Below are positions 18,286 to 22,928 of a stretch of 64,000 nucleotides of DNA, one piece after another. This DNA comes from a bacterium (lineage in GTDB: Bacteria; UBA8248), in NCBI GenBank assembly GCA_965221165.1, contig CBDCRP010000003.1:1600001-1664000 (forward strand), written 5' to 3'. The notes beneath the pieces were generated by a model. That model was not told the DNA's origin. It did not search any database and was given only the letters and a program-made list of their open reading frames with translations. The position numbers and the translations under genes were made by a program. Numbering within the stretch: the first letter of the stretch is position 1; each line of letters opens with the position of its first letter.

Positions 18286-18619
18286 TGGATATTCTCCTTC
18301 AGTGGGGTGAGGTGGATAATGGACTGACCAAGTATGGCTGATGAGTTTTTCCTTTGTGTAAACGTCATCCACAGGTGCTCCTCGTGGATGGCGAATCTCA
18401 GGGAAAACCTCAACTATCGGCCTTTGCCGATTCTTTGTTCTCGGTATGATTGCCCAATCCAAGGATAATGAGCGAAAAACCTGATGTCAACAAGAAACTA
18501 AATGCCGGCAAGCCATTTTCACCTCTTTGGGGTATCCTCATCGCCTGAAGGAACTCTGTTTCCGGCATGTCCGCCGATAAGGACGGGTGTGGCCTCATCT
18601 ATCCATTCGGGGTTGCGGG

Positions 18620-19828
18620 ATGAGTCGAACAGCGTGGGACGCCATCGTGGTCGGGGGCGGCATACTCGGTCTTTCCACCGCCATGGAGATCACCCGCCGC
18701 CACCCCGAAAAGCGCGTCCTCGTCCTCGAGAAAGAAGCCGGCGTCGGCCGCCACCAGTCGCTCCACAACAGCGGCGTGATCCATGCGGGACTCTACTACC
18801 GCCCAGGCTCGCTCAAGGCGAAAACCTGCGTGGAGGGCGCGGCCGCCATGGTGCGCTTCGCGCAGGAGCACGGAATCGACCACGAAATCTGCGGCAAGGT
18901 GGTCGTCGCCACGAACGAGGCGGAAATCCCACGGCTCGAGGAACTACGCCGCCGGGGCGAGGCCAACGGCATCGAGAACATCGAGGTTCTGGGGCCCGAG
19001 GCGCTCGGGGAAATCGAACCCCACGCCTGGGGCGTCAAGGCCCTTCGGGTGCCCTCCACGGGCATCATCGACTATGGCGCCGTCGTGCGCGCCTATGCCC
19101 GCATCATCGAGGCGGGGGGACAGAAGATACAGACCTCAGCGCAAGTCACCGGAATCAGCATCGCAAGGGGAGAAAAACGGGTCGAAACCACGGCGGGGGA
19201 TTTCGGCGGAAAACTCATCGTCAACTGCGCGGGGCTTTACGCCGATAGAATCGCCAGGCTCGCGGGCGGTGCGCCGCCGATGAAGATCGTGCCCTTTCGC
19301 GGCGAGTATTACGAACTCACGCCCGGGCGCCGCGCGCTCGTCAAGAGCCTGATCTACCCGGTGCCCGACCCGGCGTTTCCCTTCCTGGGCGTACACTTCA
19401 CCCGCCGCGTGAACGGGAGCGTGGAAGCCGGGCCGAACGCCGTTTTGGCCTACATGCGAGAGGGTTATACGAAAACCAGAATCAACCCCTACGACCTGCT
19501 CGAAACCCTCACCTACCCCGGCTTCCTGAAGCTGGCCCGGAAATACTGGAAGGTGGGTCTGGGCGAGATGGTCCGCTCCATGAGCAAAGCCGCCTTCACG
19601 CGGGCGCTGCAAAAGCTAATCCCTGAGATTCGGGAATCGGACCTCGTGCCCGCAGGCGCGGGCGTTCGCGCGCAGGCGGTGAACAGGGACGGCGGCCTGC
19701 TCGATGATTTCTCCATCATCAGGACGGAGGGCGCGGTCCACGTGTGCAACGCCCCTTCGCCGGGGGCGACGGCATCCTTGATGATAGGCCGCGCCATCGC
19801 GGACATGGCGGAGGAGATGGCGGGCTGA
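18620..19828 (+). CDS. lhgO: L-2-hydroxyglutarate oxidase
   Basis: GGGILG, HNSGVIHAGLYY, PFRGEY, FPFLGVH, GVRAQA and NAPSP. Confidence 0.9.
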   Translation: MSRTAWDAIVVGGGILGLSTAMEITRRHPEKRVLVLEKEAGVGRHQSLHNSGVIHAGLYYRPGSLKAKTCVEGAAAMVRFAQEHGIDHEICGKVVVATNEAEIPRLEELRRRGEANGIENIEVLGPEALGEIEPHAWGVKALRVPSTGIIDYGAVVRAYARIIEAGGQKIQTSAQVTGISIARGEKRVETTAGDFGGKLIVNCAGLYADRIARLAGGAPPMKIVPFRGEYYELTPGRRALVKSLIYPVPDPAFPFLGVHFTRRVNGSVEAGPNAVLAYMREGYTKTRINPYDLLETLTYPGFLKLARKYWKVGLGEMVRSMSKAAFTRALQKLIPEIRESDLVPAGAGVRAQAVNRDGGLLDDFSIIRTEGAVHVCNAPSPGATASLMIGRAIADMAEEMAG

Positions 19829-19973: not shown

Positions 19974-20033
19974 TCAAACCCGACCGATGAGGGAGGGTTT
20001 GCGCCTTTCGTAGGTCGGACATATATGTCTGCC
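19974..20033. repeat. 29-bp spacer unit (25/29 identical to 21497-21525) plus GTAG-type REP (20010-20033)
   Basis: TCAAACCCGACCGATGAGGGAGGGTTTGC vs TCAAACCCGACTGATAAAGGAGGATTTGC; GTAGGTCGGACATATATGTCTGCC palindrome. Confidence 0.65.
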
Positions 20034-20171
20034 ACCTGCGTGTCCGCCCACACATATATGCGTCCCGCGCCCCTTCGCCCCCAAAACATGGGCCGATGGG
20101 GTGGACGCCCCCTTCCGGCAGCATCAGAATGTGGCGAGATGACGTCACACACCGCCCGGAAGGAGGCATCC

Positions 20172-21197
20172 ATGGAAGGAGTCTACATCATCGGTATCGA
20201 TCTGGCGAAACACAGCTTTCAACTCCACGGCGCGCGGGCGGGCGGTTCGGTCGCGTTCCGCAAGAAGCTCGGCAGGACGAGGATACTGGGCTTTCTGGCG
20301 TCGCAGCCGCGTTGCGTGGTGGCGATGGAGGCGTGCGCGGGCGCGCACCATTGGGGCCGGGCGATCGGGCGGCTCGGTCACGAGGTGAGGCTGGTGCCGC
20401 CGCTCTACGTGAAGCCCTTCGTGAAGCGCCACAAGAACGACGCGGCGGACGCGGAGGCGATCTGCGAGGCGGCCACTCGGGCGACGATGCGCTTCGTGGC
20501 GGTGAAGAGCGAAGCGCAGCAGGCCCAGGGGATGCTGTTCCGCACGCGCGATTTGCTGGTTCGCCAGAAGACGCAGACGATCAACGCGTTGCGGGGTCAC
20601 CTGGCGGAGTTCGGGGTCGTCGCGCCGCAGGGGCCTGTGGGCCTCACGCGGTTGGCGGCGGCGGTTCGTGGAGCGGAATCGGGGCTGCCCGTGGCGGTTC
20701 GGGAGTTGGGCGAGATTTTTCTGGAGCAAATCGCCGGTCTGAGCCGGAAGCTCGGGGAGTTGGACAGTCAGCTTCGCGCGAGCGCCTGCGCGGACGAAGA
20801 GGCGCGGCGTCTGATGCGGGTTCCGGGAATCGGTCCGGTAACGGCGTCGGCGCTGCGGGCCTTCGCGCCTCCGATGGAGAGCTTCCGGCGGGGACGGGAC
20901 TTCTCCGCCTGGCTGGGTCTGGTCCCCCGGCAGCACTCCACGGGGGGCAAGGCGCGCCTGGGGAGGGTATCGAAGATGGGGCAGCGTGACGTGAGGCGGC
21001 TGTTGATCACGGGCGCGATGTCGGTGATTCGCCAGGCGGTCCGGCGCGGCGCGCCGCCGGGTTCGTGGTTGGCCCGGATGCTCGCGCGCAAACCGAGGAT
21101 GCTCGTCGCGGTGGCGCTGGCCAACAAAATCGCACGCGTCGCCTGGGCGCTGATGAAGAACAAGGACGACTACAGGGAACCGGCGCCCCTCGTCTGA
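20172..21197 (+). CDS. IS110 family transposase/recombinase
   Basis: IGIDLAK, MEAC, KNDAADA (DEDD RuvC-like) and GLVPRQHSTGGK (Tnp Ser). Confidence 0.95.
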   Translation: MEGVYIIGIDLAKHSFQLHGARAGGSVAFRKKLGRTRILGFLASQPRCVVAMEACAGAHHWGRAIGRLGHEVRLVPPLYVKPFVKRHKNDAADAEAICEAATRATMRFVAVKSEAQQAQGMLFRTRDLLVRQKTQTINALRGHLAEFGVVAPQGPVGLTRLAAAVRGAESGLPVAVRELGEIFLEQIAGLSRKLGELDSQLRASACADEEARRLMRVPGIGPVTASALRAFAPPMESFRRGRDFSAWLGLVPRQHSTGGKARLGRVSKMGQRDVRRLLITGAMSVIRQAVRRGAPPGSWLARMLARKPRMLVAVALANKIARVAWALMKNKDDYREPAPLV

Positions 21198-21458
21198 GCG
21201 GCGGGCGCGCGGATAGAACCGGGAGGAATGTGGGCAGGCCACAGGAGGAGTAAGGGCAAACGGTCTTCGAGACGGGGTCGGGGAAACCAGTTACATGCGA
21301 CGAGTGAAGCACCAAGCTCGCCGGGTCGATTCGGACCCGACCCACTCATCTCCATACGGGCCCGCGGCCAGGATGAAGCGCCGCAACCAAGAGGCCGAAT
21401 GTACGACTGAGCCGGACCGCTTTGCGCCGAACCCTCCGAAGAAACCGCTTGCATTCTG
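21198..21458 (+). ncRNA. Putative bridge/seekRNA in the IS1111 3' non-coding region
   Basis: Guide-like segments flanking hairpins match the target (TACATGCG, GGGTCG) and the donor junction (CCATACG, ATGTACGA); boundaries approximate. Confidence 0.7.
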
Positions 21459-21476
21459 AGGGGGCGTCCATGTACG

Positions 21477-21525
21477 CATGTATGCCGCCCCTACGATCAA
21501 ACCCGACTGATAAAGGAGGATTTGC
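21477..21525. repeat. Right half of the interrupted REP (CATGTATGCCGCCCCTAC) and second copy of the 29-bp spacer
   Basis: Direct comparison with 19974-20002 and with REPs at 61013 and 63660. Confidence 0.65.
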
Positions 21526-21551: not shown

Positions 21552-22868
21552 TTAATACTCGAACACCGTGGGGCCGTCCACTTTTTCGGTCAGCGCAGAG
21601 GCGGCGGCGCGGGCGGCTCCGAGGCGCCATTCGCGCTCGGCCTCGGGCGTCCGGGAGGGGTCGCCGAATGGATGGTGAAAATGCCCGGCGCGGTTGTTGA
21701 CGATGCGGTTGACCCCGATGTCGCGCGCCACGTCGGGCAAACAGGTGACGATGACGGTGGGGATGCTCTCCCGCTCCAAGGCTCTCGCCAGCGCAGCCCC
21801 GCTGCGCGTGCCGGTTCCTCACGTGGCGGGGAGCACGACGCCCTCTACCCCGGCCTTTTTGAGTTCGGCGGCCCAGGCGCGGCCGATGCCGTCCATCTCG
21901 GCGAAGGCGCCGCCGTTCCCGCAGGTGCTCAGGAAATCATCGTGGAGTTCAGCGATTTCACCCTCGCCCTCGAGCCGCCGGAAGGCGTCCACGGCGAGCA
22001 TGCGGTCGGGCTCCTCGTTCACGAACACGGTGTTGAAGCCGCCGTGGATCGAGATGAAGGCGCCGCCCGAAAGGGCGTCTTTCCCCTCGAATGAGTAGGT
22101 GGCCCAGTTCTCGTTTCTCGAGCCAGCGAAGCGATCCGGGTTGCCGGGGGGGACCATGCCGCCTTCGGATACGATGGCAATGCGGGCTTTCTTGAGATCG
22201 GGGATCGGCTTAGGCGGAGCTATCTCTTCCAGAACGGGAACTTCGAGTTCGGTCTGGTAGGGCTCGCCCCTGATTTTTTTGAGGACCATATCGACGGCGC
22301 GCCGCGAAGTCGGAAGCTCGGCGATTTCGTTGTAGCGGATGCCGCGCGGGAGGTAGCCTTCCTCGGCGGCGTTTCCGACCCTCTCGCCCCGGGCGAGCTT
22401 GAGCCCCAGGCGGGCGGCGGCTTCCAGGGCCGCTTCCATCCCGGCGGCGGACTCTGCGGCGGAGACGGTGTGAACGCTGGTTCCGGCGGCGGGGAAGCCC
22501 GGATTCTCAGGGTGCATGGCGGTGACGACGGGAACGCCCGCCTCCTGCCCGGCGCGGCAGACGGCGGCGCAGGCGAGCCCGTAGCGCCCCGCGTTGAAAG
22601 CGGGCCCGGCGAGTAAGAGATCGGGAGAAAATTCCAGAATCCGCGCGATGGCCTCGGCGGCGCAGGTTTTTTCGTTTTCGGCGAAAAGACCATCGCCCGC
22701 GAAGACGGTAGCGATAACTTCGGCGTCCTCATTCAGTATCTTATCGAGCAATACGCCGGGGCCGACCGGGCCGGGCCGGGAGGATACGGGATGATCGCTC
22801 ATCTCCTCGCCCCCGACGCCTGCGAAGAACTGGTTCAAGTAGTGAACGACCCGAAGTTTACCGCTCAT
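21552..22868 (-). CDS. grdB: Glycine/betaine/sarcosine reductase selenoprotein B (GrdB-like), Sec at codon 350 (TGA 21819-21821), variant motif T-U-GTGTRSG
   Basis: VVHYLNQFFAGVGGEE, GPAFNAGRYG, MHPENPG and HGGF; in-frame TGA joins 21819..22904 with 21552..21779; SECIS hairpin. Confidence 0.88.
21791..21818 (-). promoter_or_regulatory. Putative SECIS element of grdB-like gene
   Basis: GCGCAGC-GGG-GCUGCGC stem starting 11 nt after UGA. Confidence 0.7.
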
Positions 22869-22928
22869 GGCCTGGCCTCCTGATATGAACTCATTCAAAT
22901 ACATATTCGGAATAAGTAGTTATGGGCT

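What the first reader, a model, noticed from the sequence alone, without database searches (positions are those of the whole stretch)
20094..21494. IS1111 bridge/seekRNA whose guides match the REP target and the donor junction in situ
Seen: removing the IS at the CG core restores REP GGGC-CG-CATGTATGCCGCCCCTAC; the circle junction would be CCATGTA-CG-ATGGGG. In the 3' non-coding end, TACATGCG (21292-21299) is the exact reverse complement of target CGCATGTA, and GGGTCG (21323-21328) matches target GGGCCG with one wobble; they flank a CGAG...CTCG hairpin. CCATACG (21352-21358, donor reverse complement CCATCG plus one base) and ATGTACGA (21399-21406, exact donor match) flank a GGCC...GGCC hairpin. 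Established: IS110/IS1111 recombinases use such bipartite RNAs. Inference: an intact REP-targeting RNA-guided recombinase with a CG core and a readable programme, a candidate new orthologue.
Basis: partly seen in the sequence, partly recalled or inferred. Interest (0 to 1): 0.78.

Follow-up and report, generated by a model that had tools for sequence, protein, structure and literature searches.

The report
REP-targeting IS1111 element with guide RNA
This is an intact jumping gene of the IS1111 type whose own small RNA carries short stretches matching both the repeat it inserted into and its own ends; it is a well-supported new member of a mechanism described in 2024.

Summary
Window 20096-21474 is a 1379-bp IS with CG on both sides, perfect 12-bp subterminal inverted repeats, a 341-aa DEDD transposase (ATG 20172) and a 277-bp 3' non-coding region. 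It sits in a REP whose uninterrupted 12-mer recurs 19 times in the genome.

GGGTCG on its own is chance-level. In 26 related elements with different guides, the segments at these same RNA positions match each element's own flanks and ends (0 of 10000 shuffles for each of three guides).

A covariance model built on this RNA shows 98% of cells paired and 17 of 29 pairs with compensatory changes. It also finds the 3' region of 9 of 10 plasmid IS1111-type elements, including the IS4321 and IS5708 families.

One correction: the fourth guide is better read as CUCCAU against the left end ATGGGG. The following ACG belongs to a helix, not to the core.

This is a new member of a known kind (IS1111 seekRNA/bridge RNA; REP targeting is known for ISPa11). 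Activity and RNA expression of this copy are not shown.

The parts
20088..20093 (+). Left half of the interrupted REP target (ATGGGC; left target).
   Evidence: REP census.
20094..20095 (+). Core dinucleotide CG, left copy.
   Evidence: The core is CG or TG at the same place in relatives.
20096..21474 (+). The insertion sequence, 1379 bp.
   Evidence: Ends fixed by alignment of 80 related loci. Contigs of runs X1/X2 bridge both junctions without a difference.
20096..20101 (+). Left-end extension ATGGGG outside the inverted repeat (right donor half-site).
20102..20113 (+). Left subterminal inverted repeat TGGACGCCCCCT.
   Evidence: 12 nt, 100% complementary to 21459-21470.
20172..21197 (+). Transposase gene, 341 aa. 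D10, E53, D90 and D93 sit in the IGID, MEA and NDAADAE motifs; T257 sits in the HSTGG motif.
   Evidence: Motifs aligned to ISCro4/IS621. Positions come minus 3, because that call used a start 3 codons upstream.
21198..21474 (+). 3' non-coding region, 277 bp.
21248..21420 (+). RNA core matched by covariance model R1. Helices: P7 21250-55/21352-57; P1 21263-65/21271-73; P2 21275-82/21336-43; P3 21301-05/21316-20; P5 21359-62/21393-96; P6 21364-68/21380-84.
   Evidence: (150.1 bits).
21292..21301 (+). Right-target guide UACAUGCGAC. It is antisense to the top strand G(T)CG-CATGTA; 8 nt are exact to the actual site.
21322..21328 (+). Left-target guide CGGGUCG, in the sense of left target + core. 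Its U faces bottom-strand G at the actual GGGCCG site.
21350..21355 (+). Right-donor guide candidate CUCCAU, antisense to the left end ATGGGG (5 Watson-Crick pairs + 1 G-U). It overlaps helix P7.
   Evidence: read by eye.
21399..21405 (+). Left-donor guide AUGUACG, in the sense of the last 5 nt of the right end + core.
   Evidence: 26 of 26; 12 of 12; 7 of 7, by eye.
21449..21454 (+). TTGCAT, a -35-like hexamer. In the circle it would lie 18 nt upstream of a -10-like TACGAT made of right end TA + core CG + left end AT.
   Evidence: Inference; not shown to act as a promoter.
21459..21470 (+). Right subterminal inverted repeat AGGGGGCGTCCA.
21475..21476 (+). Core dinucleotide CG, right copy.
21477..21494 (+). 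Right half of the REP (CATGTATGCCGCCCCTAC).

Best explanation
Window 20096-21474 is a sequence-intact insertion sequence of the IS1111 group of the IS110 family, inserted at a CG dinucleotide inside a repetitive extragenic palindrome.

**Components.**
- It encodes a 341-aa DEDD recombinase.
- In its 3' non-coding region it encodes a structured RNA of about 170 nt, a long seekRNA or bridge RNA.

**Target loop.** This loop is closed by an 8-bp stem (P2) and carries a distal hairpin (P3).
- Its 5' strand is complementary to the top strand of core + right target.
- Its 3' strand has the sense of left target + core, so it would pair with the bottom strand.

**Donor part.** A second hairpin (P5/P6) is flanked by two segments.
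- CUCCAU is antisense to the element's left end.
- AUGUACG has the sense of the right end + core.

**Shown here:** the anatomy, the conserved RNA structure with compensatory changes, and the co-variation of all four guide segments with flanks and ends among relatives.

**Inferred from the family (PMC11187229, PMC11208160):**
- The element excises as a circle.
- The joined ends create a promoter (TTGCAT-N18-TACGAT) that transcribes the transposase and the RNA.
- The RNA-protein complex pairs with target and donor and exchanges strands at CG.

The programme reads GGG(U)CG|CAUGUA. It fits one REP subtype exactly and the occupied site with one wobble/mismatch.
For: **Family features.**
- Pfam PF01548 + PF02371.
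- NF033542 'IS110 family RNA-guided transposase' at 314.7 bits, cut-off 140.
- 39.5-39.8% identity over residues 4-337 to IS4321/IS5075-family transposases.
- IGID, MEA, NDAADAE and (S/T)G motifs aligned to ISCro4 and IS621.
- 12/12 subterminal inverted repeat.

**Guide-to-flank matches in 26 guide types from 58 parsed loci.**
- Left-target guide: 4.58 of 5 against 1.40.
- Right-target guide: 6.54 against 3.26.
- Left-donor guide: 5.00 of 5 against 3.60.
- Each reached in 0 of 10000 shuffles.

**Same-genome test.** Two decayed relatives differ by one guide base (ACAAGATT against ACCAGATT), and their right flanks differ by the matching base.

**Same-genus copies.** Twelve further copies keep left-donor guide = right end + core in 12 of 12. 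They show retargeting to other REP types.

**RNA structure.** On 52 model matches 98.0% of cells pair, and 17 of 29 pairs change on both sides. This was reached in 0 of 500 shuffles; slid controls give 16-44%.

**Reach of the model.**
- It finds the 3' region of 9 of 10 plasmid IS1111-type elements.
- There the right-donor guide position tracks left-end position 4 in three states: C/G, A/T and U/A (by eye).

**Raw data.** Contigs of runs X1/X2 bridge both junctions exactly.
Against: - No direct evidence that this copy is transcribed or mobile.
  - It is the only intact copy in its genome, although 29 matching empty 12-mers exist.
  - No empty-site or circle joint was seen in the contigs laid.
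- No Rfam family matched.
- The occupied site differs from both target guides at one position (C where the guides specify T).
- The right-donor guide overlaps helix P7 by 4 nt, so both pairings cannot hold at once.
- In ISEc11 an 82-nt RNA holding only the target matches sufficed for movement (PMC11187229 section 10). A donor-guide role in IS1111 elements therefore rests on comparison, not on experiment.
- Two of 8 copies in genome G010 have right flanks that fit the sister guide variant better than their own.
- A candidate closing stem for the donor loop was paired in only 52.3% of cells.
- The A3 alignment was fitted to the model, which favours the structure.
Confidence: 0.9

Rival explanations
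1. Only the target-binding half is an RNA guide (a short seekRNA). The 'donor guides' are not read as RNA: the ends are recognised by the protein through the subterminal repeats. On this reading the internal copy of the right end and the CCAU segment are conserved for another reason, such as RNA folding (helix P7) or a DNA-level site.
For: - In ISEc11 the 82-nt RNA alone gave 42% transposition, and the role of the long RNA is called open (PMC11187229, sections 10 and 14).
- CCAUAC pairs with upstream GUAAGG in helix P7: 98.1% of cells paired, 2 of 5 pairs with compensatory changes.
- A 70-bp tandem duplication in L114 is bounded by the guide-coding DNA and the right end, so this repeat also acts at the DNA level.
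Against: - The 7-mer equals right end + core in 26 of 26 guide types.
- It does so in 12 of 12 further copies and in 7 of 7 distant plasmid elements (by eye), through at least seven different sequences.
- The CCAU position tracks the left end in three states, including L095, where the changed base lies outside P7.
- Durrant et al. report donor complementarity for IS1111 members within a multi-loop (PMC11208160, section 12).
Confidence: 0.12
2. The element is a correctly built but currently immobile copy, silent or lacking a host factor. On this reading the readable programme has no present function.
For: - One intact copy against 29 matching empty sites.
- The other two RNA-bearing copies are decayed or truncated.
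- No sigma-70-like promoter lies inside the linear element.
- No empty-site or circle joint was seen in runs X1/X2 (contigs drop rare forms, so this is weak).
Against: - Open reading frame, catalytic motifs, repeats, RNA helices and guides are all intact.
- Same-genus genomes carry 3 to 8 copies of close relatives.
- A promoter formed only in the circle is the family's expected mode.
Confidence: 0.25
3. The guide-like strings are chance matches, or a REP fragment carried inside the element.
For: - The REP is palindromic and GC-rich.
- GGGTCG within one mismatch arises in 19861 of 20000 shuffles.
- TACATGCGAC equals part of the reverse strand of a REP variant.
Against: - All three testable matches together arise in 0 of 20000 shuffles.
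- Relatives with unrelated targets carry the matching strings at the same RNA positions.
Confidence: 0.02

Closest known systems
ISPa11 (IS1111 group, Pseudomonas aeruginosa), seekRNA shown experimentally
   Same: - 3' non-coding region gives an RNA that co-purifies with the transposase.
- The top-strand match lies 5' of the bottom-strand match.
- It targets a REP and inserts next to a CG (GG*CG).

Sources: PMC11187229 section 9; Table 1 of PMC13604230, as seen in the passages.
   Different: - Different host and different REP sequence.
- Its sequence was not on hand, so identity and RNA-model score were not measured.
- This element's RNA and activity are untested.
IS4321 / IS5075 (archetypal IS1111-group elements with subterminal repeats)
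   Same: - Transposase related over nearly its full length: 39.5-39.8% identity, residues 4-337.
- 12-bp subterminal repeats.
- Model R1 matches the 3' region of an IS4321-family copy over positions 1-167 (26.7 bits, E 1e-06).
   Different: - They target transposon terminal repeats, not REPs.
- Left end ATGAG with guide CUCAU, core TT (by eye).
- The RNA match is weak.
IS621 / ISCro4 bridge RNA systems (IS110 group)
   Same: - DEDD recombinase with a Ser/Thr-Gly motif.
- A bispecific RNA with paired guides for both strands of target and donor.
- A dinucleotide core.
   Different: - Here the RNA is in the right end, not the left end.
- Guide order is reversed.
- The inverted repeats are long.
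- Donor nucleotides sit at a multi-branch junction rather than a simple internal loop, as PMC11208160 section 12 notes for IS1111 members.
- Only the C-terminal part of the protein aligns significantly (E 3.7e-11 and 1.7e-09).
ISPpu9 / ISPpu10 of Pseudomonas putida (REP-inserting IS110-family elements)
   Same: - Inserted in REPs.
- A small-RNA gene lies downstream of the transposase gene.

Sources: abstract of PMC12288879 in the listing; ISPpu10 is named in the legend seen.
   Different: Only the abstract and a legend were seen. No sequence comparison was made.

Membership tests
IS1111 group of the IS110 family | DEDD (RuvC-like) N-terminal domain plus the PF02371 C-terminal domain | tested here: met
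   PF01548 E 1.9e-15 and PF02371 E 1.2e-22. NF033542 at 314.7 bits against a cut-off of 140.
IS1111 group of the IS110 family | Transposase related across its full length to IS1111-group transposases; length 330-350 aa | tested here: met
   341 aa. 39.5-39.8% identity over residues 4-337 to IS4321/IS5075-family proteins. IS1111 itself was not compared.
IS1111 group of the IS110 family | Subterminal inverted repeats of 7-17 bp with short terminal extensions | tested here: met
   12 nt, 100% complementary, 20102-13 / 21459-70. Extensions are 6 nt on the left and 4 nt on the right.
IS1111 group of the IS110 family | Longer non-coding region downstream of the transposase gene | tested here: met
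   277 bp downstream against 76 bp upstream.
IS1111 group of the IS110 family | GL-P----S(t)G motif in the C-terminal domain | tested here: met
   GLVPRQHSTG. The TG aligns with the SG of ISCro4/IS621.
IS1111-type seekRNA | [quoted passage not shown] | tested here: met
   21292-21301 precedes 21322-28. The same order and positions hold in 26 guide types.
IS1111-type seekRNA | RNA is made, binds the transposase and is needed for movement | not testable with these tools
   The only hint is that RNA-library contigs of a 90-95% relative cover 21207-21479 in 2 runs of 2 studies. The tool warns that DNA can be present in such libraries.
Bridge RNA (IS621 type) | Donor-binding loop with guides for both donor half-sites | tested here: inconclusive
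   The left-donor guide is met in 26 of 26. The right-donor guide co-varies in 3 states over 8 elements (by eye) but overlaps helix P7. A simple closing stem was paired in only 52.3% of cells.
Bridge RNA (IS621 type) | RNA encoded in the left end, upstream of the recombinase gene | tested here: not met
   The RNA lies in the right end. It works like a bridge RNA but belongs to the IS1111 arrangement.
Rfam RNA families | Match at gathering score to a curated family | tested here: not met
   3 matches, all with E above 3 and far below gathering score.
REP (repetitive extragenic palindrome) as target | Short palindromic repeat in many copies, lying between genes | tested here: inconclusive
   157 matches to GGGNCGCAT[AG][TC]ATG counting both strands, with palindromic flanks visible. 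This copy lies between ORFs ending at 19828 and 21819. Extragenic location of the other copies was not tested.

The most novel reading that the evidence does not exclude
In this IS1111 clade the donor half of the RNA may be a switch rather than a plain loop. The right-donor guide (CUCCAU) is partly locked in helix P7 by an upstream strand, and that strand changes together with both the guide and the left end in distant relatives. Donor binding would then have to open P7, which might gate when the RNA can engage the circle.

Separately, the DNA that encodes the left-donor guide is an internal copy of the right end + core and can itself recombine. L114 shows this as a 70-bp tandem duplication, and L011 shows a sister element inserted at that spot.
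Probability: 0.2. Interest if true: 0.55.

Novelty: new member of a known kind. Interest (0 to 1): 0.35.

Why it matters
It adds a compact natural system: a 341-aa protein plus an RNA of about 170 nt, with a CG core and a programme that can be read directly.

More usefully, it comes with a set of at least 26 naturally reprogrammed relatives. These fix the position and length of each guide in IS1111-type RNAs, where the donor half has not been tested experimentally.

It also shows one clade being retargeted among different REP families within a genus. That bears on how REPs serve as landing sites that spare genes. None of this changes the known mechanism.

Tried and rejected
- **Single-sequence folding** of 21198-21478 gave no signal (z 0.54).
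- **Rfam** gave nothing.
- **A 4-bp closing stem for the donor loop** (A2 columns 102-105 with 172-175) was paired in only 52.3% of cells and was dropped.
- **A long-range pairing of the TGTGGG region with GCTTGCA** was proposed by RNAalifold. It was not pursued: only 1 compensatory cell.
- **Orthologous empty site.** In same-genus genome G005 the two flanking genes are adjacent with a spacer of about 503 bp and no IS. The spacer is not alignable, so it does not give the exact empty site.
- **Reads.**
  - No joint at 20095/21477 and no circle junction appeared in the contigs of X1/X2. The two 'skip' joints near 20002 carry 22-39 other letters between their sides and come from other REP loci.
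- **Internal promoter scan:** none inside the element.
- **L093** (the best plasmid relative, 67.4%) gave no RNA-model match. Another transposase gene starts about 150 bp after its CDS.
- **L099 and L100** gave weak model matches, but my script found no inverted repeat, so they were left out of the end/guide reading.
- **Rows dropped before counts.**
  - 26 of 86 loci were not parsed by my regular expressions.
  - L012 and L041 were dropped as length outliers.
  - L058 was left out of A2 because of a duplicated hairpin.
  - Ten loci with other or truncated right ends were left out of A1.
- Searches used window:20163-21197. This carries three in-frame codons (EAS) upstream of the true ATG at 20172. 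Searches used the right start.
- **Other script flaws.** The first census script used coordinates off by one and is void. The second half (most common 17-mers) mis-sliced minus-strand hits and is not used.
- **Supplements.** Supplementary files of the papers were not opened. Supplementary Figs 6-9 of PMC11187229 and Supplementary Table 5 of PMC11208160 may hold RNA folds or element lists that bear on the donor half and on whether this element is already catalogued.
- **ISfinder** could not be queried.
Full report
**What is there.**

Reading the window confirms every string and coordinate in the finding. The element runs from 20096 to 21474 (1379 bp) and has CG on each side (20094-95, 21475-76).

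It carries perfect 12-nt subterminal inverted repeats, 20102-13 and 21459-70. Outside these lie a 6-nt left extension (ATGGGG) and a 4-nt right extension (TGTA).

The transposase gene starts at ATG 20172, six bases after AGGAGG, and ends at 21197, giving 341 aa. I first used 20163 as the start, three codons too far upstream. This does not affect those results.

That leaves 76 bp of non-coding sequence on the left and 277 bp on the right.

**The protein.**
- Pfam finds PF01548 and PF02371.
- NCBIfam finds NF033542, 'IS110 family RNA-guided transposase', at 314.7 bits against a cut-off of 140.
- Against solved structures, the C-terminal part aligns to ISCro4 (E 3.7e-11) and IS621 (E 1.7e-09).
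- The printed ISCro4 alignment places IGID, MEA and NDAADAE opposite the corresponding motifs. HSTGG lies opposite the Ser-Gly of both proteins.
- The motif GLVPRQHSTG fits the GL-P----S(t)G pattern given for IS1111 transposases (PMC11187229, section 6).
- In the plasmid collection the best relative is 67.4% identical (a Gemmobacter fulvus plasmid). IS4321/IS5075-family proteins are 39.5-39.8% identical over residues 4-337.

**The target.**

Joining the flanks at one CG gives ATGGGCCGCATGTATG. This has 3 exact copies and 15 copies within one mismatch elsewhere in the 3.69-Mb genome.

GGGCCGCATGTA occurs 19 times and GGGTCGCATGTA 10 times, against about 0.5 expected. The looser pattern GGGNCGCAT[AG][TC]ATG occurs 157 times counting both strands. 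The hits sit in palindromes of the type GTAGGGGCCGCATATATGCGGCCCCTAC.

So the element interrupts a member of a REP-like family, between ORFs ending at 19828 and 21819.

Contigs from two runs of one sample bridge both junctions without a difference, so the insertion is not an assembly artefact. No empty-site or circle joint was seen.

A same-genus genome (G005) has the two flanking genes adjacent without an IS, but its spacer cannot be aligned.

**Are the matches more than chance?**

Taken alone, only partly. In 20000 dinucleotide shuffles of the non-coding region:
- the exact antisense 8-mer of core + right target arose 24 times;
- the exact 7-mer of right end + core arose 77 times;
- a 6-mer within one mismatch of GGGCCG arose 19861 times;
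- all three together never arose.

Minimum-energy folding of the single sequence is no better than shuffles, and Rfam has nothing. The case therefore rests on comparison.

**Comparison with relatives.**

A scan of species-representative genomes returned 80 loci with 70-88% protein identity. Their left ends align sharply at (C/T)G|ATGG(G/A)(G/A)TGGACG, with unrelated sequence before it. Their 3' regions are conserved except for a few short blocks.

I anchored on the conserved RNA sequence and extracted four blocks plus both flanks from the 60 loci my patterns could parse, out of 86. Two length outliers were dropped, and one locus was kept per distinct guide pair, giving 26 types.

| Guide block | Compared with | Own element | Other elements |
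|---|---|---|---|
| Block before GAU-UYGGACCC | last 5 non-core bases of the left flank | 4.58 of 5 identical | 1.40 of 5 |
| Block after AACCAG (reverse-complemented) | core + right flank, longest exact run | 6.54 | 3.26 |
| Block after AGGCCGR | last 5 bases of the right end | 26 of 26 identical | 3.60 of 5 |

None of 10000 re-pairings reached the observed mean for any of the three. Relatedness among types inflates such tests. However, sister elements in one genome (L015 and L017) carry different guides and correspondingly different flanks.

**Tests inside the same genome and genus.**

The genome holds two more RNA copies.
- One belongs to a 79%-identical element whose transposase gene has a stop at codon 3 and a frameshift.
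- The other belongs to a 5'-truncated copy.
- Their right-target guides read ACAAGATT and ACCAGATT. Their right flanks read AATCTTGT and AATCTGGT: one base changed in each, in step.

Twelve further copies from same-genus genomes keep left-donor guide = right end + core in 12 of 12.
- The four closest carry left-target guides GGGCCG, GGGACG, GGGACG and GGGTCG, each at an identical flank.
- The eight copies in G010 are retargeted to two other REP types: GTAGGTCG|GACATATATG and ...|GACACGCAGG.
- Exceptions: two of these eight have right flanks that fit the sister guide variant better than their own. Several left flanks also differ from the guide by one base.

**The programme of this copy.**

Both target guides specify GGGTCG|CATGTA. 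The 5' guide UACAUGCGAC is antisense to GTCGCATGTA, and the 3' guide is CGGGUCG.

The occupied site has C at that position. This gives U opposite bottom-strand G for one guide and A opposite top-strand C for the other. Ten sites that match the guides exactly are unoccupied.

**RNA structure.**

RNAalifold on 34 non-redundant 3' regions predicted three things:
- an 8-bp stem enclosing the two target guides;
- a two-part hairpin between the two donor segments;
- a pairing of GUAAGG with CCAUAC.

With a hand-set structure on a MAFFT alignment of 33 sequences, 91.9% of cells paired and 10 pairs changed on both sides, reached in 0 of 500 shuffles.

A covariance model of 167 positions and 29 pairs matched 52 places in 48 sources. 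On that model-fitted alignment 98.0% of cells pair and 17 of 29 pairs change on both sides, reached in 0 of 500 shuffles. Slid controls give 16-44%.

**Link to described IS1111 elements.**

The model matches the 3' region, over its full length, of 9 of 10 plasmid elements with 41-57% protein identity. These include IS4321- and IS5708-family copies, at 17.3-96.7 bits.

Seven of them had identifiable repeats. By eye:
- the left-donor guide equals right end + core in 7 of 7;
- the segment before CAU follows the left end: CCAU with ATGG, ACAU with ATGT, UCAU with ATGA.

So the fourth guide is real, but it is best read here as CUCCAU (21350-55) against ATGGGG. The ACG that follows pairs with upstream GUA in helix P7 and is not a copy of the core.

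P7 overlaps the guide by four bases. This fits the remark that IS1111 donor-binding nucleotides lie in a multi-loop (PMC11208160, section 12).

**How it likely works.**

Shown:
- the anatomy;
- the structure;
- the co-variation of four guide blocks with DNA.

Inferred from the family:
- Excision to a circle.
- A promoter formed at the joined ends. TTGCAT at 21449-54 would lie 18 nt from TACGAT, built from right end, core and left end. In 24 of 26 types a TTG-starting hexamer lies 16-18 nt from the equivalent hexamer.
- Co-transcription of the transposase and the long RNA, and processing to a shorter target-binding RNA (PMC11187229, section 14).
- Strand exchange at CG by the DEDD site and Thr257.

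No sigma-70-like promoter lies inside the linear element.

A weak hint of transcription in relatives comes from RNA-library contigs that are 90-95% alike. They cover 21207-21433 and 21212-21479 in two runs of two studies.

**Literature seen.**
- PMC11187229: abstract and sections 6, 9, 10, 13 and 14.
- PMC11208160: passages around 'IS1111'.
- PMC13604230: passages, including Table 1.
- PMC12288879 and the others: search listings only.

**Verdict.**

The kind is known. IS1111 seekRNAs and bridge RNAs were described in 2024, and REP targeting is documented for ISPa11. This is therefore a new member, of moderate interest, mainly as a candidate orthologue that comes with a rich set of natural reprogrammings.

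Noticed in passing
L114 (G010:C1:4138300-4140170), about 1592-1740: A 70-bp segment running from just after the left-donor-guide DNA (ATATACG) to the right end + core (ATATACG) is present twice in tandem. The true right flank (GACACGCAGG) follows and fits this copy's guide. The internal copy of the right end thus seems able to recombine or slip with the real end.
   Followed up: partly
L011:1292-1500 and right flank: This related IS sits inside the RNA gene of a sister IS. Model R1 matches just upstream (130.6 bits), and the insertion point is in the sister's left-donor-guide region. The inserted element's own guides (GAGGUCG, and antisense CGGACAUAC) match that spot.
   Followed up: partly
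G000:C3:1254515-1255887 (L002) and G000:C2:745784-746658 (L003): These two decayed relatives in the same genome read CA at the right junction, where their left-donor guide specifies CG and L002's left junction reads CG. In four plasmid elements (L091, L092, L097, L098) the left junction reads TA where the guides read TT or TG. The second core base often differs between junction and guide.
   Followed up: no
window 20102-20118 with 20156-20172: A 17-nt inverted repeat (88% complementary) pairs the left subterminal repeat with the ribosome-binding site and start codon. The same complementarity is visible in the aligned left ends of relatives. It may hold down translation of read-in transcripts.
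   Followed up: no
window 20011-20075: Two other REP-like palindromes lie just left of the insertion. One is GTAGGTCGGACATATATGTCTGCC, the type targeted by the eight retargeted copies in same-genus genome G010.
   Followed up: partly
window 21470-21482: In this clade the right end and the right target are nearly the same string (CATGTA-CG-CATGTA), so the right junction is a direct repeat. This is not so in most relatives. Meaning unknown.
   Followed up: no
L057:1219-1382, L069:1117-1281, L019:2787-2955, L028:2581-2934: Second matches of the RNA model lie next to the main one. They suggest nested or tandem elements, or solo RNA genes, in those genomes.
   Followed up: no
window 18587-19828 (+) and 21819-22904 (-): Neighbouring ORFs look like an FAD-dependent oxidoreductase and a glycine/betaine-reductase-type subunit. 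This is judged from the translations only; they were not searched.
   Followed up: no
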